A stretch of DNA of 64,000 nucleotides from positions 1,875 to 65,874 of the forward strand of contig JBHHZR010000003.1 in the NCBI GenBank assembly GCA_046758125.1, written 5' to 3'. The position numbers and the translations under genes were made by a program. Origin of the DNA: Nitrosopumilus sp. (GTDB lineage: Archaea; Thermoproteota; Nitrososphaeria; Nitrososphaerales; Nitrosopumilaceae). Under the pieces are notes generated by a model. The model saw nothing but the letters and a program-made list of their open reading frames with translations. It searched no databases and was not told the origin of the DNA. The first letter of the stretch is position 1. The number at the start of each line of letters is the position of its first letter. Positions 23,265-62,645 of this stretch are shown piece by piece.

Positions 23265-23338
23265 TGGGACCGGCAGGATTTGAACCTGCGACCACTAGTC
23301 CCCCAGACTAGTATCATACCAAGCTAGACGACGATCCC
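23265..23338 (-). tRNA. tRNA-Pro (anticodon GGG), CCA not encoded
   Basis: Reverse complement folds as a cloverleaf: acceptor GGGATCG/CGGTCCC, anticodon arm CTAGT-CTGGGGG-ACTAG, T-arm GCAGG-TTCAAAT-CCTGC, discriminator A followed by TT. Confidence 0.95.
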
Positions 23339-25626: not shown

Positions 25627-27087
25627 TTGCCCTATAAAGTTAGTCATGGAAAAGCGATCCAAGTAACATACTCACCAGATGAAGTTTTTGCAAGAATTCA
25701 GCATGAGGGAATTCAATTTATTGATCTACAATTTACAGGTCTTACAGGTCGTTTTCATCATACTACAATTTCAGCAAATACATTTACTCCTGAACAAATG
25801 CGGGATGGATTACCTAAACTAGATGGGTCATCAATTATTGGTTTTACTAGCATTGATGATTCAGATCTACTTTTAAAACCAGATCCAAATACATTTGCAA
25901 TTATTCCATGGATGACAGAAAACAAAACAGCCAGACTGCTTTGTGATGTTTATTGGGGAGAAAATAGAGGAAGATTATCAAGAGATCCTAGAGGAATTGC
26001 TCAAAAAGCAGAAGAATACACCAAATCTCAGGGATTTGATTTTAGTAATTGGGGTCCTGAGGTAGAATTCTTTGTTTTTGATAAAGTGTTTTGGGATGTT
26101 TTAACACCATACAAAGGACAATCTTATGCAATTGAATCAAAAGAAGCACCATGGAATCATGATGGTGATGGATATCCAATGGGATTACAAGAAGGATATT
26201 ATCCTAGTACACCACATGATACTCTTACACCATATAGAAATGAGTGTGTAAACATTCTCAACAAAAATTTTGGAATCTTGTGTGATAATCATCATCACGA
26301 GGTTGCAACTGCAGGACAATGTGAGATTGATATTAGATATGATCTTATGACTAATGCGGCAGATGCTGCACAAACTTACAAATATGTTATTAGAAACGTT
26401 GCAAAGAAATTTGGAAAAGTTGCAACAATGATGCCTAAACCAATAGCAATGGACTCAGGTTCTGGGATGCATGTTAATGTTAGTTTATGGAAAGGAAAAG
26501 ATAATGCATTTTATGATCCAGATGATGAGATTGAATTAAGTCAAATTGGCAGATATTTCTGTGGTGGAATTATTAATCATGCAAAAGCATTATCTGCAAT
26601 TTGTAATCCTACAACTAACTCATATCATAGATTAGTACCTGGATATGAAGCTCCAGCATACATTGCATGGAGCTCAGGAAATCGTTCAGCTATAGTAAGA
26701 GTTCCAAAACATCTTACAGGAAAAGAGTATTCACATCTAAAACGACTTGAATTTAGAGCACCTGATCCTTCATCAAATCCATATCTTGTTTTTGCATCTG
26801 TAACAGCTGCGGGAATGGATGGAATAAAAAAGAAGATGGATCCTGGGGATCAGGTACGTGATGATATCTTTAAGATGACTAGATCCGATAGGGCAAAAAG
26901 AGGTATAGGCGTTCTTCCAAAAAGTCTTGGGGAAGCATTAGATGAATTAGAAAGTGATAGAAAATTCCTTAGCCCAATTTATACAAGTGATGTTATAGAT
27001 AAAATTATAGAATTAGAAAGAAGAGATCAACGTGAGATATCTATTAGACCACATCCTCACGAGTTTTATCTTTACTTTGATGTTTAG
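25627..27087 (+). CDS. glnA: Glutamine synthetase type I
   Basis: LDGSS, GPEVEFF, HHEVATAGQCEI, GSGMH, NSYHRLVPGYEAP and RLEFRAPDP motifs; TTG start. Confidence 0.95.
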   Translation: MPYKVSHGKAIQVTYSPDEVFARIQHEGIQFIDLQFTGLTGRFHHTTISANTFTPEQMRDGLPKLDGSSIIGFTSIDDSDLLLKPDPNTFAIIPWMTENKTARLLCDVYWGENRGRLSRDPRGIAQKAEEYTKSQGFDFSNWGPEVEFFVFDKVFWDVLTPYKGQSYAIESKEAPWNHDGDGYPMGLQEGYYPSTPHDTLTPYRNECVNILNKNFGILCDNHHHEVATAGQCEIDIRYDLMTNAADAAQTYKYVIRNVAKKFGKVATMMPKPIAMDSGSGMHVNVSLWKGKDNAFYDPDDEIELSQIGRYFCGGIINHAKALSAICNPTTNSYHRLVPGYEAPAYIAWSSGNRSAIVRVPKHLTGKEYSHLKRLEFRAPDPSSNPYLVFASVTAAGMDGIKKKMDPGDQVRDDIFKMTRSDRAKRGIGVLPKSLGEALDELESDRKFLSPIYTSDVIDKIIELERRDQREISIRPHPHEFYLYFDV

Positions 27088-27362
27088 ACTCTTCCAGTAA
27101 ATTGGAAGATAAAGTGTAATGAGATAGTTATTAGAGCAAATCCTCCTCCAAGAAAAATTATTCTTTTATTTTCAGATGTAGCAGCTTTGTATAATAAAAC
27201 TCCACCAGCAAGACCTACAAACAAAACTATAACTCCTAAAATTACATTGTCAAAACTTTGGTGAGTAATAATTGGATAAAAAAATCCAGAAAGTAATGCA
27301 AAAAATGCAACTAGGTAAATGTATTTGAACCCAGTGAGCATTCTGGAGGATGTTTTATTCAA
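27084..27362 (-). CDS. Small membrane protein
   Basis: Three hydrophobic segments. Confidence 0.6.
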   Translation of the reverse strand: MNKTSSRMLTGFKYIYLVAFFALLSGFFYPIITHQSFDNVILGVIVLFVGLAGGVLLYKAATSENKRIIFLGGGFALITISLHFIFQFTGRV

Positions 27363-27415
27363 TGTTGTTCGTAAATATAGTTATCAAATAAACTTTTGAA
27401 AAATTTCAAAATAAT

Positions 27416-29131
27416 TTACATCATTCCGCCCATGTCAGGCATTCCACCCATTCCAGGTGGCATTCCACCCATTCCAGGTGGCATTCCACCCATTCCAGGT
27501 GGCATGCCTCCTTCTCCTCCACCAGGTGGGCCACCTGCAGATTTTTGGGTAGCAATCACATCATCAATTCTAAGAATCATACATGCAGCTTCAGAAGATG
27601 CAGAGACAACCTGAAGTTTAACTGCAAGGGGTTCAATAATATCACTTGATTTCATATTAGCAATCTTTCCTTTCATTACATCAATTCCAGTCCATTTTTC
27701 TCCTTTCTGTTGTTTTGAACGAAGAAGTGTTAGTGTGTCAATTGGATCCATTCCAGCATTTTCAGCTAACGTTAGTGGAATTGATTCTAAAGCATCAGCA
27801 AATTTTTCTGCAGCTAACTGTTCTCGTCCTTCCAGAGATTTTGCCCATCCTCTAAGTTTTGTTGCAGCATATGTCTCAGGAGCACCTCCACCTGCAACGA
27901 TTTCAGGTTTTTCGATTACGTCTTTTACAACCATTAATGCATCATGAACAGAACGTTCAACTTCATCTACTACTCTTTGTGAACCACCTCGAAGTAGAAG
28001 TGTAACAGATTTTGGATGTTTACATCCTTCTACAAATACCCATTTATCTTCTTCAATTTTTCTTTCTTCAACAAGATCTGCACTACCTAGATCTTTCTCG
28101 AAAAGATCATCAAGATTTGTAACTATTCTAGCACCTGTTGCTTTTGCAAGTTTAGTAAGATCACTTTCTTTTATTCGTCTAACTGCAATAATTCCAGCTT
28201 TTGCTAGATAGTGTTGTGCCATATCATCAACTCCTTTTTGACATAAAACTACATTTGCGCCAGAACCAATAACTTTGTCAACCATTGTTTTTAACATACG
28301 ATTCTCTTCATCTAGGAATGATTTCATTTGTTGAGGATTTGAAATGTTAATTTTTGCATCAGTTTCAGTCTTACTGATTTCTAATGCGGTGTTAATTAAT
28401 GCAATTTTTGCTTCAGTAATTTTTCTAGGCATGCCTCCATGAACAATCTCTTTGTCAAGAACAATGCCTTGAATAATCATCGAGTCTTTGATAGAACCTC
28501 CAGCCTTCTTTTCTACTTTGATATCATCAATATCAACATCATAACTTTCAGCATCTTTTTCTGAAACAGCTAAAACAGATTTTACAACAATTTCTGCAAG
28601 TTGATCAGAATCTTTTCTAACAAGTTTAGTTTGCATTGATGTCTTTGCAATTTTAGTTAGAATGTTTTTGTCATTTGCAGAAATATTGTCTGCAATACTT
28701 TGAAGAAATTGTTTTGCTTTCTTTCCAGCTTTTCTATAACCATCAACAATAATTGTTGGATGAACATCTTGATCAATTAATGATTCAGCATTTTCTAGTA
28801 ATGCACCAGCCAAAACAACTGCTGAAGTTGTACCATCACCAACTTCATTATCTGTAGTTTTTGAAATTTCAACAAGCATTTTTGCGGCTGGATGTTGAAC
28901 ATCAATTTCTTTTAGAATAGTAGCACCATCATTTGTAATAGTAACATCACCTAAAGAATCAACTAACATCTTATCCATACCTCGCGGACCTAGGCTAGTA
29001 TGAACAATTTCAGCTATAATTTTAGATGCAGCAATGTTATTCTTTTGTGCATCTCTACCCTTAGTTTCTGAACCACCCTCCTTTAGTAATACAACTGGCA
29101 TATTTCCTTTCGAAGTAGCTTGCATGCCCAT
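27416..29131 (-). CDS. ths: Thermosome (group II chaperonin) subunit
   Basis: [28 protein letters not shown] and LRIDD motifs; GGM tail. Confidence 0.97.
27440..27502 (-). repeat. Three exact 21-bp tandem repeats encoding (PPGMGGM)3 in the chaperonin tail
   Basis: CATTCCACCCATTCCAGGTGG at 27440, 27461 and 27482. Confidence 0.95.
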
Positions 29132-57614: not shown

Positions 57615-58130
57615 ATGAAACCTTTTATTCTTTGGATGACTGGTCTTCCTTGTTCAGGAAAGACTACCATCGTAAAAGATCTGCAAAAAGACATTCCAAA
57701 TTTGGCAATGCTTGATGGTGATGAATTAAGAGAATGGTTCTCTCCAAAAGATTTTTCAAAAGCAGGACGTGATGAACACAACAAAAAAGTTGCTCATTTA
57801 GCTAAGCTTTTGTTAAAACATGGCGTTCCAAGCGTTGTATCTCTAGTTTCTCCATATATTGAGAATAGAAAAAATGCTAGAGAGATTATTGATGCAGGTG
57901 ATCAGTTTGCAGAATGTTATGTAAAATGCTCACTTGAAAAATGCGAGGAAAGAGATGTCAAAGGTATGTACGCCAAGGCGAGAAAAGGAGAAATTAAAGG
58001 ATTTACAGGAATCGATGATCCTTATGAACCTCCAGAAGATGCAGATTTGGTAATTGATACAGAAAATGAACCCCTTTCTGAAAGTGCAAATAAAGTTAAG
58101 GATTTTCTTAAAGGAAGAAACCTACTCTAA
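57615..58130 (+). CDS. cysC: Adenylylsulfate kinase
   Basis: TGLPCSGKTT, LDGD, RDVKGMYAKAR and FTGIDDPYE motifs. Confidence 0.93.
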   Translation: MKPFILWMTGLPCSGKTTIVKDLQKDIPNLAMLDGDELREWFSPKDFSKAGRDEHNKKVAHLAKLLLKHGVPSVVSLVSPYIENRKNAREIIDAGDQFAECYVKCSLEKCEERDVKGMYAKARKGEIKGFTGIDDPYEPPEDADLVIDTENEPLSESANKVKDFLKGRNLL

Positions 58131-58937
58131 TTTTTTAAATTCTTCAACTATTTTTTCATGAACTAATCCATTTGTTACTAGGATTCCGTTTTGGTGATGA
58201 ACTTCTTTGTTATTGTATGTGATATCATTTCCTAACATGTCTGTCATTTTTCCTTCAGCTTCTGAAATAATACAATAAGATGCAGCCGAATCCCATTCCT
58301 TCATTTTGTTTGTAGTTGTGATATATGCTTCAGCTTCACCTGAGCTAATTTTTCCAACTTTTAATGAACTTCCTATACTTGTAAAATCTTCAATACCTAA
58401 TTTTTTGATAAATGATTTTTCTTTATCTGACAGGTGATGTCTTGAACCCACAGTTCTACATTTTGAAAGTTCTGCAACTTTAGTCACAGAGATTCTTTTC
58501 CATTCATTATTTGAGTATCTAAATGCCCCACTACCTTTTTGTGCAACAAACAAAGTTTTTTCCGTAGGCCAATTAATTACTCCAAGTATTGGTTTCTTGT
58601 TTTGTACCAATGCAATCATTACTGTAAATTCCCCTGTCTTATTAATAAAATCAGAAGTCCCATCAAGTGGATCTACAATCCATATTACATTCTCTGATAA
58701 TCTACTATGATCGTCTTTATCTTCTTCTGACAAAATTGTATGTTTTGTTTTTGATAGAATCTCTTTGATGATCTCATTACTTTTGAGATCTGCATCTGTA
58801 ATAGGAGAATCATCATCTTTTTTTGATGCCTCAAAATTCCCCTGATAAATCTCTAAGATTGCATTTCCAGCATATATTGCAGCCTGAATAGCAACATCTA
58901 ACTCAGGAATTTTATCAGATATGGGTATGTCTTTCAA
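58122..58937 (-). CDS. cysQ: 3'(2'),5'-bisphosphate nucleotidase
   Basis: PITDAD, LSEE, WIVDPLDGT and EWDSAA motifs. Confidence 0.92.
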   Translation of the reverse strand: MKDIPISDKIPELDVAIQAAIYAGNAILEIYQGNFEASKKDDDSPITDADLKSNEIIKEILSKTKHTILSEEDKDDHSRLSENVIWIVDPLDGTSDFINKTGEFTVMIALVQNKKPILGVINWPTEKTLFVAQKGSGAFRYSNNEWKRISVTKVAELSKCRTVGSRHHLSDKEKSFIKKLGIEDFTSIGSSLKVGKISSGEAEAYITTTNKMKEWDSAASYCIISEAEGKMTDMLGNDITYNNKEVHHQNGILVTNGLVHEKIVEEFKKLE

Positions 58938-59194: not shown

Positions 59195-59938
59195 TCATTT
59201 TATTGATTCTCCTCCATCTACTGCTAACACTGCACCTGTAATCCAAGAAGCATCATCTGATGCAAAATACATTACAGCTTTTGCTACTTCTTCAGGTTGA
59301 CCAATTCTACCTATTGGGTGATCATTATTCATAAATTCTATGTCTTTCTGAGTTTTCATAAATGGTTTTGTCATGTCCGTATCTACCACTCCAGGGCAAA
59401 TACAGTTAACCCTAATCTTATCTTTAGCATATTCTAATGCCCAACATTTTGTTAATAGAATTAAAGCAGCTTTTGCTGCAGAATATGCATCAGCATTAAA
59501 ATCTTGATATGCTTTTAATCCTGCATCAGATGAAATGTTAATTATCGAACCCATAGTTTTTTGTAGATAAGGAATTGCTTCTTTTGTAACTCTAAACTGT
59601 CCTGTGAGATTTACATCTAAAACTTCATTCCAATCACTTTCACCAATTTCATGTAATGGTTTGATCTTTGGAAAAATTCCAGCATTGTTTACAAGAATAT
59701 CTAATCTACCAAATTTTTCAATTAATTTTTTTACAACATTTTTTACATCATCTTTATTTCTAATATCAGCAACAATCCCAATTGCATTGTTAATCTCCGA
59801 AGCTGATTTTTCCAATCTCGTTGGTTCTTTTGCAGTTATCACAACTGTTGCTCCATTTTCTGACAAAATTTTAGCTATGGCATATCCTATCCCTCGACTT
59901 CCCCCAGTTACTAATGCAACTTTTCCAGATAATCTCAA
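59195..59938 (-). CDS. SDR oxidoreductase (FabG-like)
   Basis: TGGSRGIG, NNAG, YSAAK and VDGG motifs. Confidence 0.93.
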   Translation of the reverse strand: MRLSGKVALVTGGSRGIGYAIAKILSENGATVVITAKEPTRLEKSASEINNAIGIVADIRNKDDVKNVVKKLIEKFGRLDILVNNAGIFPKIKPLHEIGESDWNEVLDVNLTGQFRVTKEAIPYLQKTMGSIINISSDAGLKAYQDFNADAYSAAKAALILLTKCWALEYAKDKIRVNCICPGVVDTDMTKPFMKTQKDIEFMNNDHPIGRIGQPEEVAKAVMYFASDDASWITGAVLAVDGGESIK

Positions 59939-60074
59939 TAGTTTTTACATCAAAATTCGTAATTTATAGATCCATGAATCCAAATATGGGAATAAAATAT
60001 TTCATAAAATTTCATATAATCTTGTAAAAAATCATATGAAATGTTAAATAGTTAAAGTTACTATAATAATTAAT

Positions 60075-60201
60075 GCCGAAGGATATAATTCCTATCGACT
60101 AAGACTGCGTAGCCCCGCAGAACGAAAAAGGCAATCAGACGTTTTTACGATCTGACAACGAGAGGAAATCTCTCAGAGTTCTGCGATAAGGGGGTTACGC
60201 C
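60075..60201 (+). ncRNA. Putative structured non-coding RNA (three-way junction), family not recognised
   Basis: About 48% GC by my count in an AT-rich intergenic gap; nested complementary stems; TTAAATAG box at about -31 to -24; T-tract at the 3' end. Strand is inferred from the promoter and terminator. Confidence 0.65.
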
Positions 60202-60203
60202 TT

Positions 60204-60638
60204 TTAATTTTCTAAAATATCCACTGATACCGAACCTCGGATATTTCCATTAGGATTAATAATAATTGAAATTTCTTGCATCTCAGAAATCTGAATAATT
60301 TTCTCTCCTTCATATTCCCATGTAAAATATTCAGAAATTCCAGTTTGATGTGATGTACTCTGAAGCTTAAAATCTTCAGAAAAATCAAAATCTGTTCCTT
60401 TCAATGTTACTGATAAAATCTCTGGACTACTTCCATTTGGAACAAATCTAAACAAATATTCTCCTTTATCAACAGTAAATACACCAGTATAAACTCCATT
60501 AGTATACAAATCAGGATCTGCTAGAGTTGCATGAAAAATAACATTAGAATTATTTTTCTCAGATGGTTCTAAAAAAAAACCTACTACAAGAATTCCAATA
60601 ATTATAATTATAGGAATTATTACAATTTTTTTATTCAT
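60204..60638 (-). CDS. Membrane-anchored hypothetical protein
   Basis: MNKK plus hydrophobic anchor, then a beta-rich domain. Probable ATG at 60638. Confidence 0.65.
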   Translation of the reverse strand: MNKKIVIIPIIIIIGILVVGFFLEPSEKNNSNVIFHATLADPDLYTNGVYTGVFTVDKGEYLFRFVPNGSSPEILSVTLKGTDFDFSEDFKLQSTSHQTGISEYFTWEYEGEKIIQISEMQEISIIINPNGNIRGSVSVDILEN

Positions 60639-60701: not shown

Positions 60702-61253
60702 TCATTTCTCTCTAATTTTTCTAGTAAGAATCTCTAATTTTTTTAAATATTCCAATATCCATGGATCATTGATTAAATCCATTATATCTTCCATTTTAAA
60801 CATTTTTGGAGTTGTAATTCCTTCTTCAAAATCATAAAGTTTTATGAGTCTATTTCTAACATTTTCAGATTCTATATTTTTGTTATGTGCAAAATTATGC
60901 GCAAAATCATTTCGAATTTCTCTTATCTCATTAAGTTTTTGTTGAATTTTTACTCTTGTATTTTCATCAATTTGATTTTTAAAATCAACATGATATTTCA
61001 TTATTCTAGACAACCAAACAATTTTTGTTCCAAACGATGCAGTTCTATCTTCATCAAATACTGTTTTTGCCCATAATGGAAAATCATTTTTATCCCGTAA
61101 AAACAAATCTGAAATAATTACAGTAAGTGTAGAATCCAAAACTGATACATAGCTTAAAAAATTACCTCGAATTCTATTAACCAAATTCACATATTCTTTA
61201 TCTGTAAGTTCTTTTGATTGCTCAGGCAAATCAAAACCAAAGGGTTCACTCAT
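60702..61253 (-). CDS. Hypothetical protein with HEPN-like RxxxxH motif
   Basis: All-helical; IRNDFAH. Confidence 0.6.
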   Translation of the reverse strand: MSEPFGFDLPEQSKELTDKEYVNLVNRIRGNFLSYVSVLDSTLTVIISDLFLRDKNDFPLWAKTVFDEDRTASFGTKIVWLSRIMKYHVDFKNQIDENTRVKIQQKLNEIREIRNDFAHNFAHNKNIESENVRNRLIKLYDFEEGITTPKMFKMEDIMDLINDPWILEYLKKLEILTRKIREK

Positions 61254-61493: not shown

Positions 61494-62132
61494 ATGTCTA
61501 ACTTACATAATAAGTGGTCAAAACAACCACAACCAAGTATTTCTGAAAAAATTAATGATACTATCAAGCCTAAAGGTCCATTAAAACCAAGGGTTCAAAA
61601 TGCAATTAAAAAATTACAATTACAAATTCAAAAATTAGATTCTATGTTAACAAATCTAAGAGAACGTGATGCAAAACTATTTGAAAGAATTGTAGAGGCA
61701 ACACAAAAACATGATATACAAACTAGTAAAGTTCTTGGCAATGAATTAGCAGAGATAAGAAAAGTCACAAAAATTTTGAGTAGTGCTAGAATAGCATTAG
61801 AACAAATTGAACTACGCTTAACTACCGCCAGTGATCTTGGAGATACTGTTGTTGCAATTATGCCAACAATGGGTTTGATGAAGAATCTAAAATCATCCCT
61901 TGGAAAAATTATGCCTGGAGCTGAACAAGAAATTAGTCAAATGGCAGAAATGCTAGGAGGCTTTATGACAGAAAGTTTCTCAGGAGATGCAACATTTGGA
62001 ATTGATGAAACCACAAATGCAGAATCTGAGAAAATCCTAAAAGAGGCTGCTGCTGTTGCAGAAAACTCTACTGGTCAAATGTTTCCTTCAGTTCCAACAG
62101 AAACTCAGGAAACAACTGCCAAATTTCTCTAA
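61494..62132 (+). CDS. cdvB: ESCRT-III (Snf7/CdvB-family) paralogue
   Basis: Snf7 helical core: ERDAKLFERIV...LGNELAEIRK...LEQIELRLTT. Confidence 0.88.
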   Translation: MSNLHNKWSKQPQPSISEKINDTIKPKGPLKPRVQNAIKKLQLQIQKLDSMLTNLRERDAKLFERIVEATQKHDIQTSKVLGNELAEIRKVTKILSSARIALEQIELRLTTASDLGDTVVAIMPTMGLMKNLKSSLGKIMPGAEQEISQMAEMLGGFMTESFSGDATFGIDETTNAESEKILKEAAAVAENSTGQMFPSVPTETQETTAKFL

Positions 62133-62141
62133 TTCTAAATT

Positions 62142-62645
62142 TTAATCTTCTAAAGATTCTCTAGATTCTTTAATTCTTTTTACTCGATTACCTTCATCAT
62201 CAATAATAGTATCAATACCTGATAGTTTACTCCTTAAAGTATTGATAATTGAACCAACTTCATCAGCTTCATTTTCCACTTGTTTTCTTTTACTTTCAAG
62301 TTCCTTTATTCCTCTATTTTCTTCATCAATATACTCACTAACTTTTTGAAGTTTTTCTTTCAGATTTTTAATATCAACTGATTCCTTTTCAATGTCTTTT
62401 TCAAGCAAAGTTCTCTTATCTTTTAGATTCTTAATCATTATCCCAACAGAATCTATCGCTTCTTCTAATTTAGCTCGTTTTCCCATTAATTCTCCTATTC
62501 CAATTTCACTTCCAGAACTAACTGAAGAAGACTCTTCGGGTTCAATTGTTGACATTGGTTCTTCAAATTCTTCTATCTCTTCACTCTCTTCGATTCTTTC
62601 TTCTTCCATTTCTCCTCCCTTATCTTTTCTGAATTTATCAAACAT
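62142..62645 (-). CDS. Coiled-coil hypothetical protein
   Basis: Acidic N-terminus and a long heptad repeat region. Confidence 0.7.
   Translation of the reverse strand: MFDKFRKDKGGEMEEERIEESEEIEEFEEPMSTIEPEESSSVSSGSEIGIGELMGKRAKLEEAIDSVGIMIKNLKDKRTLLEKDIEKESVDIKNLKEKLQKVSEYIDEENRGIKELESKRKQVENEADEVGSIINTLRSKLSGIDTIIDDEGNRVKRIKESRESLED

What the first reader, a model, noticed from the sequence alone, without database searches (positions are those of the whole stretch)
60044..60210. Unannotated structured RNA gene candidate (three-way junction)
Seen: 60 G/C in 126 nt (60075-60200) in an AT-rich gap. GCGTAGCCCC (60107-116) pairs with GGGGTTACGC (60191-200, one G-U) and GCAGAAC (60117-123) pairs with GTTCTGC (60178-184). 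Internal hairpins are TCAGA-CGT-TTTT-ACG-A-TCTGA (60135-155) and GAGAG-GAAAT-CTCTC (60160-174), with a 5' hairpin AGGA/TCCT. A purine-rich BRE-like stretch and TTAAATAG lie at -31 to -24 from G60075, and CTTTT closes the last stem. CCTATCG (60091-97) could pair alternatively with CGATAAGG (60184-191), hinting at a switch. It does not match the tRNA, 5S, SRP, C/D-box or riboswitch consensuses I know. Inference: an independently transcribed, possibly undescribed ncRNA.
Basis: partly seen in the sequence, partly recalled or inferred. Interest (0 to 1): 0.78.

Follow-up and report, generated by a model that had tools for sequence, protein, structure and literature searches.

The report
New structured small RNA of ammonia-oxidizing archaea
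The flagged stretch is a real gene, with its own promoter, for a roughly 130-base folded RNA that is conserved in two to three copies per genome across marine ammonia-oxidizing archaea (Nitrosopumilaceae), matches no catalogued RNA family, and begins with a tiny nine-codon reading frame that appears to be kept open by selection.

Summary
Window 60073-60205 (+) is one member of a large RNA family. I collected 174 further copies from Nitrosopumilaceae genomes and metagenomes.

- **Structure:** on 100 distinct sequences the five-helix fold (5' hairpin P1, long closing helix P2a/P2b with a 3'-side bulge, arms P3 and P4) is 95% paired. Register-shifted controls give 33-52%. Twenty of 35 pairs show compensatory changes.
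- **Transcription unit:** every copy has a TTAAATA box 21 nt before the first base and a T-run after the last stem.
- **Strand:** 228 G-U pairs fix the + strand.
- **Copies:** the copies sit at 3-4 conserved, unrelated chromosomal sites, and the downstream gene usually converges. This rules out a leader or riboswitch.
- **Expression:** metatranscriptome contigs cover the RNA but not its promoter.
- **Known families:** Rfam 15, ARAGORN and literature searches find nothing.
- **New:** all 143 unique copies start with ATG/GTG (or TTG 3 nt in) and reach an in-frame TAA/TAG/TGA after 8-9 codons. The only indel in this stretch is 3 nt. The peptide is not conserved.

Function is unknown. My best guess is a trans-acting RNA whose folding is coupled to ribosome loading at a leaderless mini-ORF.

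The parts
60036..60051 (+). Archaeal promoter: an A-rich BRE-like stretch followed by the TATA box TTAAATAG (60044-60051).
   Evidence: TTAAATA (rarely ATAAATA) is present at the same distance in all 75 genome copies. The spacing to the first transcribed base matches that of leaderless protein genes in this window.
60073..60205 (+). The RNA itself (about 133 nt). The ends are predicted, not mapped.
   Evidence: Covariance-model hit of 139.9 bits, E=3e-34, covering the full model. Minimum free energy z=-4.8. It is the only copy in the 64-kb window.
60073..60102 (+). Leaderless mini-ORF: ATG CCG AAG GAT ATA ATT CCT ATC GAC TAA (MPKDIIPID*).
   Evidence: 143 of 143 unique family members keep a start codon, 8-9 sense codons and an in-frame TAA, TAG or TGA. 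Frame 0 never has an internal stop, while stops come and go in the other two frames. The only indel is 3 nt. The peptide is not conserved.
60077..60097 (+). P1, the variable 5' hairpin (CGAAGGA / TCCT-A-TCG, loop TATAAT).
   Evidence: Four of the 5 modelled pairs show compensatory changes and 96.6% of cells are paired. The sequence is paralogue-specific.
60103..60106 (+). Linker between the stop codon and P2 (GACT).
   Evidence: Its length is 3 or 4 nt in 100 of 100 aligned copies and its sequence is free.
60107..60116 (+). P2a, 5' strand (GCGTAGCCCC). It pairs with 60191-60200.
   Evidence: Seven of 10 pairs are compensatory. The terminal G-C and the third pair (G-C) are invariant and the second pair (C-G) is kept in 97 of 100 copies.
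60117..60123 (+). P2b, 5' strand (GCAGAAC). It pairs with 60178-60184.
   Evidence: 99.7% of cells are paired and 3 pairs are compensatory once divergent members are added.
60124..60134 (+). J1, the junction strand GAAAAAGGCAA. Its core AAAGG is near-invariant.
   Evidence: Its length is 11 nt in 100 of 100 copies. The first base is free, and AAAGG is kept in the 175 copies found, though both search patterns required it.
60135..60155 (+). P3 arm (TCAGACGT-TTTT-ACG-A-TCTGA).
   Evidence: The base pairs U-A, C-G and A-U are near-invariant. The upper stem covaries (5 pairs) and the loop varies in length and sequence.
60156..60159 (+). J2, the junction strand CAAC.
   Evidence: Always 4 nt, A/C-rich and variable in sequence.
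60160..60174 (+). P4 hairpin GAGAG-GAAAT-CTCTC.
   Evidence: The sequence is nearly invariant. The closing pair switches G-C to A-U in 9 copies. 99.4% of cells are paired.
60175..60177 (+). J3, the junction strand AGA.
   Evidence: Always 3 nt and variable in sequence.
60178..60184 (+). P2b, 3' strand (GTTCTGC).
   Evidence: See the P2b 5' strand.
60185..60190 (+). One-sided bulge GATAAG between P2b and P2a.
   Evidence: 5-9 nt, A/U-rich and variable in sequence.
60191..60200 (+). P2a, 3' strand (GGGGTTACGC).
   Evidence: See the P2a 5' strand. G60112-U60195 is a wobble pair that exists only on the + strand.
60201..60211 (+). Unpaired C, then the T-runs TTTT-AA-TTTT, a likely archaeal oligo-T terminator.
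   Evidence: A C followed by a T-rich run follows the last stem in all copies. The stop codon of the convergent 144-aa gene (60204-60206, minus strand) lies inside it.
59195..59938 (-). Divergent upstream neighbour: a short-chain dehydrogenase. It marks the synteny and is not part of the RNA.
   Evidence: Pfam adh_short_C2, 1e-72. It flanks paralogue A in 29 loci.
60204..60638 (-). Convergent downstream neighbour: a membrane-anchored 144-aa protein with no Pfam family. It marks the synteny.
   Evidence: Its 3' end abuts the RNA terminator in most of the 32 loci that carry it. It has 2409 relatives, and the few that carry a source name are called hypothetical protein.

Best explanation
**What it is (shown).** This is a stand-alone gene for a roughly 130-nt structured RNA. 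It founds a family restricted, as far as sampled, to Nitrosopumilaceae (Nitrosopumilus, Nitrosarchaeum, Nitrosomaritimum and pelagic single-cell genomes).

Each copy has:
- its own TATA promoter;
- a 5' purine 21 nt downstream of it;
- a variable 5' hairpin (P1);
- a 17-bp closing helix broken by a one-sided bulge (P2a/P2b);
- a three-way junction whose strand lengths are fixed at 11, 4 and 3 nt;
- a variable arm (P3), a nearly invariant hairpin (P4, loop GAAAU) and a T-run.

Genomes carry two to three paralogues at conserved, functionally unrelated sites. The window holds paralogue A.

**How it most likely works (inferred).**
1. The invariant junction, P4 and the G-C clamp at the foot of P2a form a compact module that binds a partner, either a protein or another RNA. 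The RNA therefore acts in trans. It does not act on a downstream gene, because in most loci the downstream gene converges.
2. The transcript starts with AUG at the same distance from the TATA box as the leaderless mRNAs of this genome. Ribosomes probably load on it and read an 8-9 codon frame.
3. That frame ends 3-4 nt before P2a. A ribosome reaching the stop codon must therefore melt the foot of the closing helix. Translation of the mini-ORF and the folded, partner-binding state would then be mutually exclusive. This would make the RNA's activity depend on how busy the translation apparatus is.

**How likely.**
- Real, transcribed, structured, undescribed RNA family: about 0.95.
- Acts in trans rather than in cis: about 0.8.
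- The mini-ORF is maintained by selection, meaning it is read by ribosomes: about 0.5.
- The specific folding/translation coupling: about 0.25.
For: **Structure.**
- On 100 distinct copies, 95.2% of cells are paired, against 33-52% when partners are slid by 1-3 columns.
- Twenty of 35 pairs have compensatory changes, with at least one in each of the five helices.
- 0 of 500 shuffles reach any of the five measures. The MAFFT alignment, which was not fitted to the structure, shows the same picture.

**Strand.** 228 G-U cells would be A-C mismatches on the other strand.

**Own transcription unit.**
- The TATA box and T-run are conserved in all 75 genome copies.
- The TATA-to-ATG spacing equals that of the SDR, thermosome and other leaderless genes of the window.
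- In metatranscriptome X39, depth is 0 over the promoter region and 112-515 over the RNA. DNA runs cover the promoter region at roughly a fifth to two-fifths of core depth (X46) or about a twentieth (X47).

**Acts in trans.**
- Four paralogue contexts were found, and the nearest downstream gene converges in most loci of each.
- The neighbours are functionally incoherent: SDR, inositol phosphatase, DUF1246/DUF1297, a flavoprotein and an MFS transporter.

**Compact core.** The junction strands are 11, 4 and 3 nt in 100 of 100 copies, while P3, the bulge and the linker vary in length.

**Mini-ORF.**
- Among 143 unique RNAs the start is ATG in 136, GTG in 2, and TTG one codon in for 5.
- The stop is TAA in 92, TAG in 46 and TGA in 5, and never a sense codon.
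- The frame has only 9 or 8 codons.
- Frame 0 has no internal stop in 70 unique ORF sequences. About 4.2 stop-creating changes are expected over 128 inferred substitutions. Frames +1 and +2 gain or lose stops on 18 and 11 tree edges.
- The only indel in the first 30 nt is 3 nt. The 3-4 nt linker right after the stop splits 51/49 between two lengths.
Against: - No transcript ends are mapped. All RNA data are assembled contigs, without strand information, and they break where paralogues diverge.
- Abundance cannot be stated, because the depth of the shared core is inflated by collapse of strains and paralogues.
- The peptide is not conserved: 62 unique 30-nt ORF sequences plus 8 of 27 nt give 61 different peptides. 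Variation shows no third-position excess (mean column entropy 0.66, 0.84 and 0.74 for codon positions 1, 2 and 3).
- Much of the variation in the ORF is explained by compensatory changes in hairpin P1.
- One paralogue lacks AUG at the 5' end and would need TTG.
- U-A-R after P1 could be an RNA motif rather than a stop codon.
- No partner is known and no target complementarity was found.
- The first two bases of P1 and the stop-to-helix spacing could reflect a purely structural ruler.
Confidence: 0.45

Rival explanations
1. A purely non-coding structured RNA, such as a ribonucleoprotein scaffold or regulator. The AUG...UAR frame would be a by-product. AUG would reflect the start-site preference of the promoter. 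UAR would be a single-stranded recognition motif. The fixed 30-nt length would be a structural ruler.
For: - P1 is maintained by compensatory changes.
- There is no amino-acid conservation and no codon periodicity.
- Paralogue E starts with ACA.
- Frame +2 is also open in 38 of 62 sequences.
Against: - All three stop codons, and only stop codons, occur at the fixed position in 143 unique copies. GTG replaces ATG.
- There are zero frame-0 stops, against about 4 expected.
- The loop varies in sequence yet never changes length except by 3 nt. Every other unpaired, non-junction segment shows 1-nt indels.
- The promoter geometry is identical to that of leaderless mRNAs.
Confidence: 0.35
2. A 3'-end or antisense module for the convergent neighbour. 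The stable helix and T-runs would terminate or stabilise the mRNA of the gene on the other strand. Alternatively, the small RNA would pair with that mRNA's 3' UTR.
For: - The stop codon of the 144-aa gene lies inside the RNA's T-run in most of the 32 paralogue-A loci that carry it.
- In most paralogue-B and E loci the next gene also converges, within 34-64 nt.
- The minus strand has a T5 run (the complement of GAAAAAGG) about 75 nt into the RNA gene.
Against: - The same core is conserved next to four unrelated genes.
- 228 G-U pairs work only on the + strand.
- The RNA has its own conserved promoter.
- Invariant junction bases and P4 are not needed for a terminator.
Confidence: 0.07
3. A ligand-sensing three-way junction, riboswitch-like, combined with leader-peptide attenuation. 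It would control read-through past the T-run, with antisense transcription into the convergent gene.
For: - A highly conserved junction with fixed strand lengths is typical of aptamers.
- The layout of short ORF, long helix and U-run resembles attenuators.
Against: - Most loci have no co-directional downstream gene.
- The convergent genes share no pathway.
- The only candidate alternative pairing is not conserved.
- There is no match to any riboswitch model.
Confidence: 0.06
4. A gene for a micropeptide. The 8-9 residue product would be the functional molecule, and the three-way junction would be a stabilising 3' UTR.
For: The frame is conserved and the promoter is strong. Most peptides end in Asp or Glu.
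Against: - 61 peptides arise from 70 ORF sequences and no residue other than Met is conserved across paralogues.
- The RNA core is far more conserved than the ORF.
Confidence: 0.04
5. A self-cleaving or otherwise catalytic RNA built on a three-way junction.
For: It has a three-way junction with invariant junction bases.
Against: - There is no hit to the hammerhead, twister-sister, hairpin, hatchet or pistol models at E<=10.
- The junction strands (GAAAAAGGCAA / CAAC / AGA) lack the hammerhead CUGAUGA...GAAA core.
- Contig breaks that looked like a cleavage site are assembly artefacts.
Confidence: 0.03

Closest known systems
Lineage-specific structured small RNAs of marine microbes with unknown function (Tan1 of marine group II Euryarchaeota; Yfr103 of picocyanobacteria; PMC5069720)
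   Same: - A stand-alone gene with its own promoter.
- A conserved secondary structure.
- Restricted to one lineage.
- Seen in marine metatranscriptomes.
- Several paralogues per genome (Yfr103 has seven).
- No known function.
   Different: - There is no sequence or structural similarity.
- It is half the size (about 130 nt, against 229-328 nt).
- The paralogues share a core but carry different 5' hairpins.
- It starts with a frame-conserved mini-ORF.
Leader-peptide transcription attenuators of bacteria (trpL, hisL, pheL type; own knowledge)
   Same: A very short ORF at the 5' end of a short transcript, followed within a few bases by a long G+C-rich helix and a U-run. The position of the ribosome would decide whether the helix can form.
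   Different: - There is no operon downstream.
- There are no runs of regulatory codons.
- There is no conserved anti-terminator pairing.
- It is archaeal and leaderless.
- It carries a conserved three-way junction that an attenuator does not need.
tmRNA and dual-function small RNAs (SgrS/SgrT, RNAIII/hld, SR1/SR1P; own knowledge)
   Same: One small, stable, highly structured RNA that also carries a short reading frame.
   Different: - **tmRNA:** its ORF is internal and has no start codon. Its ends form a tRNA-like acceptor arm. ARAGORN finds none here.
- **Dual-function sRNAs:** they encode conserved peptides of 26 residues or more. Here the peptide is 8-9 residues and not conserved.
Three-way-junction riboswitch aptamers (purine, TPP classes; own knowledge)
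   Same: A closing helix plus two arms, junction strands of fixed length with near-invariant bases, and one arm free to vary.
   Different: - There is no regulated gene in cis.
- There is no model match.
- The closing helix is 17 bp and ends the transcript.
Y RNAs (own knowledge)
   Same: About 100 nt, with a long terminal stem interrupted by a bulge, a multi-branched interior and a 3' U-tail. They are stable partners of a protein.
   Different: - Here the 5' end is not part of the terminal stem.
- Whether a Ro60/TROVE protein exists in these genomes was not tested.
- There is no Rfam hit.

Membership tests
Any Rfam 15 family (4227 models) | A covariance-model score at or near the family threshold. 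| tested here: not met
   The whole window at gathering thresholds gives only tRNA-Pro at 23265-23338. 59940-60260 at E<=10 gives zero matches. Fifteen other family members at E<=10 give only one isolated, far-below-threshold match under the RNA (TLS-PK6, on the opposite strand in L077) and none that recurs.
tRNA / tmRNA | A cloverleaf or a tRNA-like domain with an acceptor stem formed by the 5' and 3' ends. | tested here: not met
   ARAGORN finds nothing here. The 5' end lies in a separate hairpin, not in the terminal helix.
C/D-box sRNA | A C box (RUGAUGA) near the 5' end and a D box (CUGA) near the 3' end forming a kink-turn, in an RNA of 50-70 nt. | tested here: not met
   Paralogue A has no RUGAUGA. 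The only CUGA (60152-60155) is Watson-Crick paired inside P3.
H/ACA sRNA | A hairpin with a pseudouridylation pocket and an ACA box 3 nt from the 3' end. | tested here: not met
   The 3' end is ...ACGCC-UUUU. There is no two-sided internal loop, since the bulge is one-sided.
Riboswitch / cis-regulatory leader | A conserved aptamer directly upstream of, and co-directional with, the gene it controls. | tested here: not met
   The nearest downstream gene is on the opposite strand in most loci of each of the four paralogue contexts.
Leader-peptide attenuator | A short ORF. | tested here: inconclusive
   The frame is conserved in 143 of 143 copies, but translation is not shown.
Leader-peptide attenuator | Mutually exclusive terminator and anti-terminator pairings, with a controlled operon downstream. 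| tested here: not met
   The candidate alternative pairing is at chance level. There is no downstream operon.
Hammerhead and other small self-cleaving ribozymes | Conserved catalytic core sequences in the junction. | tested here: not met
   There are no model hits. The junction strands are GAAAAAGGCAA, CAAC and AGA.
5S rRNA | A three-way junction with helices I-V and loops A-E, in an RNA of about 120 nt. | tested here: not met
   There is no RF00001 hit at E<=10. P4 is a simple 5-bp hairpin.
Mobile-element or viral RNA (omega-RNA, retron, phage sRNA) | Association with a transposase, reverse transcriptase or viral genes, and variable genomic location. | tested here: not met
   The copies sit at syntenic chromosomal sites. 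A loose pattern found 2 chance hits in 2.9 million viral contigs, and neither matched the model.
Y RNA | A Ro60 (TROVE) partner protein encoded in the genome. | not tested
   Only 64 kb of this genome is at hand, and there is no genome-wide protein search for this organism.

The most novel reading that the evidence does not exclude
This would be a new class of archaeal RNA in which a translated, leaderless mini-ORF is hard-wired to a conserved three-way-junction module, 3-4 nt upstream of it. A ribosome finishing the ORF would have to open the module. The RNA would then work as a ribosome-gated switch, or sensor of translational capacity, in organisms that have no known small-RNA regulators, no tmRNA and no genetic system.
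Probability: 0.2. Interest if true: 0.9.

Novelty: categorically new. Interest (0 to 1): 0.72.

Why it matters
Nitrosopumilaceae are among the most numerous microbes in the ocean and carry out the first step of nitrification. Almost nothing is known about RNA-based regulation in them, and they cannot yet be manipulated genetically.

This finding gives a concrete, testable handle:
- an RNA with about 20 covarying base pairs;
- a near-invariant junction;
- two to three paralogues per genome;
- signals in many marine metatranscriptomes.

A covariance model can now annotate it in every genome and quantify it in existing metatranscriptomes.

If the mini-ORF is read by ribosomes, it would also be one of the shortest conserved reading frames known in Archaea. 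It would be an unusual case where the frame is under selection but the peptide is not.

"Categorically new" here means that no known RNA family or mechanism can be assigned. Whether the mechanism itself is new remains open.

Tried and rejected
It is present here but sits at chance level across 72 sequences.
2. **A second copy in the window.** The model's only other hit (27362-27397, 10 bits, E=2.8) is spurious. The G+C-rich island next to it (27397-27616) is the Gly-Gly-Met repeat tail of the thermosome gene on the minus strand.
3. **Contig starts as a processing site.** Contig starts at L011:2944-2947, just after the stop codon, looked like a processing or cleavage site. DNA runs show the same breaks, with several different upstream sequences. 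They are therefore branch points of the assembly graph where paralogues diverge.
4. **The 10-25x depth excess of the RNA over neighbouring genes in metatranscriptome X39.** DNA runs show a similar excess, because the conserved core collapses strains and paralogues. I therefore claim only 'transcribed', not 'highly abundant'.
5. **Mutual-information scan for pseudoknots or loop-loop contacts.** The top non-helix pairs all lie within P1 and track paralogue identity. No tertiary pair emerged.
6. **Protein search with the downstream neighbour to reach distant genera.** The 120 hits listed were all at least 74% identical. The family's outer taxonomic limit is therefore not established.
7. **Supplement of the Red Sea TSS study.** The stored file is cut before the Thaumarchaeota table.
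8. **Literature.** Six searches, including literal sequence strings, found no description.
9. **Coding for a conserved peptide.** This is rejected, because there is no residue conservation and no third-position bias.
Full report
**1. Checking the observation.** The sequence is as described.
- 60075-60200 holds 60 G/C in 126 nt. The gap upstream is 18% GC and the window 32%.
- The minimum-free-energy fold of the + strand is the same three-way junction preceded by a 5' hairpin. It scores -47.3 kcal/mol, z = -4.8, and 0 of 200 shuffles fold as well.
- The minus strand folds about as well in this one sequence. The strand had to be settled by comparison with other copies.

**2. It is one member of a large family.**
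- Metagenome contigs laid on 59900-60300 showed that 60040-60235 is far more widely conserved than the protein genes on either side.
Of these, 78 are family members. They come from Nitrosopumilaceae MAGs and single-cell genomes: Nitrosopumilus, Nitrosarchaeum, Nitrosomaritimum and pelagic marine group I. A few bins are labelled otherwise. The remaining 41 lack the rest of the motif.
- A second pattern deliberately excluded the canonical first junction base. It found 96 more copies in metagenomes, and all of them match the covariance model at 94-143 bits.
- A loose pattern found nothing real in 2.9 million viral contigs.
- The window holds a single copy.

**3. Structure.** The helix layout was first tested on a plain MAFFT alignment of 75 copies, not fitted to any structure. 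There, 94.2% of cells are paired, against 35-50% with slid partners, and 13 pairs have double changes.

On a model-based alignment of 100 distinct sequences:
- 95.2% of cells are paired, against 33-52% with slid partners.
- Twenty of 35 pairs have compensatory changes.
- Every helix has at least one compensatory pair.
- No shuffle out of 500 reaches the observed values.
- 228 cells are G-U or U-G, which would be mismatches on the other strand. The RNA is therefore on the + strand.

The junction strands are 11, 4 and 3 nt in all 100 sequences. The P3 arm (18-21 nt), the one-sided bulge (5-9 nt), the linker (3 or 4 nt) and the 3' strand of P2a (9-12 nt) vary in length.

The near-invariant parts are:
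- AAAGG in J1;
- the three basal pairs of P3;
- almost all of P4, including its GAAAU loop;
- P2b;
- the G-C/C-G/G-C foot of P2a with the unpaired C after it.

This is the signature of a compact, specifically recognised module. A mutual-information scan found no further contact.

**4. An independent transcription unit that does not act on a downstream gene.**
- All 75 genome copies have TTAAATA (rarely ATAAATA), followed 21 nt later by a purine. It is A in nearly all and G in a few. A T-rich run directly follows the last stem.
- The protein genes of this window (SDR, the 144-aa gene, thermosome and others) have their TATA box at the same distance from their start codons. This genome therefore uses leaderless mRNAs, and the RNA's promoter is built the same way.
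- The copies fall into paralogue groups defined by the 5' hairpin, each with its own conserved neighbours:
  - **A (this window):** between a divergent short-chain dehydrogenase and a convergent 144-aa membrane-anchored protein. That protein's stop codon lies inside the RNA's T-run.
  - **B:** between a small zinc-ribbon-like ORF and a convergent DUF1246/DUF1297 protein followed by a flavoprotein. From my own knowledge, these are the PurP and UbiX families.
  - **C (Nitrosarchaeum):** near an MFS transporter.
  - **E (pelagic cells):** next to a convergent 325-aa protein.
- They share no pathway.
- Several genomes hold two copies on different contigs or 650 kb apart (OX638319.1: L008 and L078). 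Across bins, Nitrosarchaeum shows A, B and C.
- A cis-acting leader, a riboswitch and a mobile element are therefore excluded.

**5. Transcription.** No RNA run exists for this very organism. Its DNA is in three hydrothermal-vent metagenomes.
- For the pelagic paralogue at L011, many marine metatranscriptomes hold the sequence.
- In run X39, depth is 0 over the 125 nt upstream. It rises to 112-515 over the RNA and falls to 0 after it.
- In DNA runs the upstream region is covered at roughly a fifth to two-fifths of core depth in X46 and about a twentieth in X47.
- So the RNA is transcribed from about the predicted start.
- I do not claim high abundance. The conserved core collapses strains and paralogues in assembled contigs and is inflated in DNA too.
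- Contig starts just after the stop codon are assembly branch points, not processing sites.

**6. The mini-ORF.** The first 30 nt read ATG CCG AAG GAT ATA ATT CCT ATC GAC TAA.

Among 143 unique family members:
- The first codon is ATG in 136 and GTG in 2.
- In five copies (paralogue E and one other) ACA or GCT is followed by TTG. TTG is a start codon that this genome uses for its SDR and glutamine synthetase genes.
- The codon at the fixed end position is TAA in 92, TAG in 46 and TGA in 5, and never anything else.
- The frame has 9 codons, or 8 in paralogue C. There is no other length.

In 70 unique ORF sequences, frame 0 never contains an internal stop. About 4.2 stop-creating changes are expected among 128 inferred substitutions (Poisson P about 0.015). 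Frames +1 and +2 gain or lose stops on 18 and 11 branches.

The hairpin loop inside the ORF varies freely in sequence, yet its length changes only once, by 3 nt. The linker immediately after the stop splits 51/49 between 3 and 4 nt.

Against a conventional coding gene:
- Seventy ORF sequences give 61 peptides.
- No residue but Met is shared across paralogues.
- Variation is not concentrated at third positions.
- Much of the variation is compensatory change in P1.

My reading is that the frame may be under selection while the peptide is not, as with many regulatory upstream ORFs. I put this at about 0.5.

**7. Mechanism (inference).**
- The conserved junction module is most likely a binding site for a protein or RNA partner acting in trans.
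- The transcript begins with AUG in a leaderless-mRNA context, so ribosomes probably load on it.
- The stop codon sits 3-4 nt before the invariant G-C foot of P2a. From general knowledge, a ribosome covers about 10 nt beyond the A-site codon. It would therefore have to open that foot to reach the stop.
- Translation and the folded state would then exclude each other.
- This is geometry, not evidence of function. I give the specific coupling model about 0.25.

**8. Comparison with known systems.**
- No Rfam 15 family matches at E<=10, either here or at the RNA in 15 other members.
- ARAGORN finds no tRNA or tmRNA.
- The defining features of several classes were checked and not met. These are C/D and H/ACA sRNAs, riboswitches, attenuators, small ribozymes, 5S rRNA and mobile-element RNAs (see the membership table).
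- In kind, it resembles other lineage-specific structured RNAs of marine microbes with unknown function, such as Tan1 and Yfr103 (PMC5069720).
- In layout, it resembles a leader-peptide attenuator without an operon.
- Six literature searches, including literal sequence strings, found no description. Subscription-only papers were not searchable.

**9. Verdict.**
- It is a new RNA family.
- Its function is unknown.
- Its frame-conserved leaderless mini-ORF is unusual and testable.

Noticed in passing
L011:2946-3041, run X44: One metatranscriptome contig (depth 5) follows the RNA up to ...CGCCA. It then continues with 72 untemplated, A-rich letters (GGAAAAAAGAATAAAAACAAAATAAAAACA...). From my own knowledge, the archaeal exosome adds tails of this kind. 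It would place a 3' end at the foot of P2a. It could also explain why oligo-dT libraries hold this RNA.
   Followed up: partly
window 60201-60212: The last codons and the stop of the convergent 144-aa gene (GAA AAT TAA on the minus strand) are encoded by the RNA's own T-run terminator. The two transcripts must overlap tail to tail. This arrangement is kept in most of the 32 loci that carry the gene.
   Followed up: partly
window 27397-27616: This is the strongest G+C island of the window (61%). It is not an RNA. It encodes the C-terminal (GGMPP) repeat tail of the thermosome gene on the minus strand.
   Followed up: yes
window 60702-61253 (-): A 183-aa ORF with no Pfam family lies between the 144-aa gene and the Snf7-like gene. 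It is present in only some genomes (5 of the paralogue-A loci). In the others the Snf7-like gene follows directly.
   Followed up: no
window 57615-58937 and 61494-62645: The neighbourhood holds three further items: an adenylylsulfate-kinase-like ORF (named by eye from its sequence), an inositol-monophosphatase-family gene, and a weak Snf7 (ESCRT-III-like) gene followed by a convergent coiled-coil ORF. None has an evident link to the RNA.
   Followed up: no
run X30, contig laid on window 60032-60123: A named (coded) organism carries a paralogue-A copy whose junction reads AGUAAAGGAC-UCAG instead of GAAAAAGGCAAUCAG. It is one base shorter than any copy in my alignments. The family is therefore wider than my two patterns could capture.
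   Followed up: partly
window 59195-59938 and 25627-27087: By longest-ORF reading, the SDR and glutamine synthetase genes appear to start with TTG directly at the leaderless position. This is relevant to whether TTG can start the mini-ORF of paralogue E.
   Followed up: no
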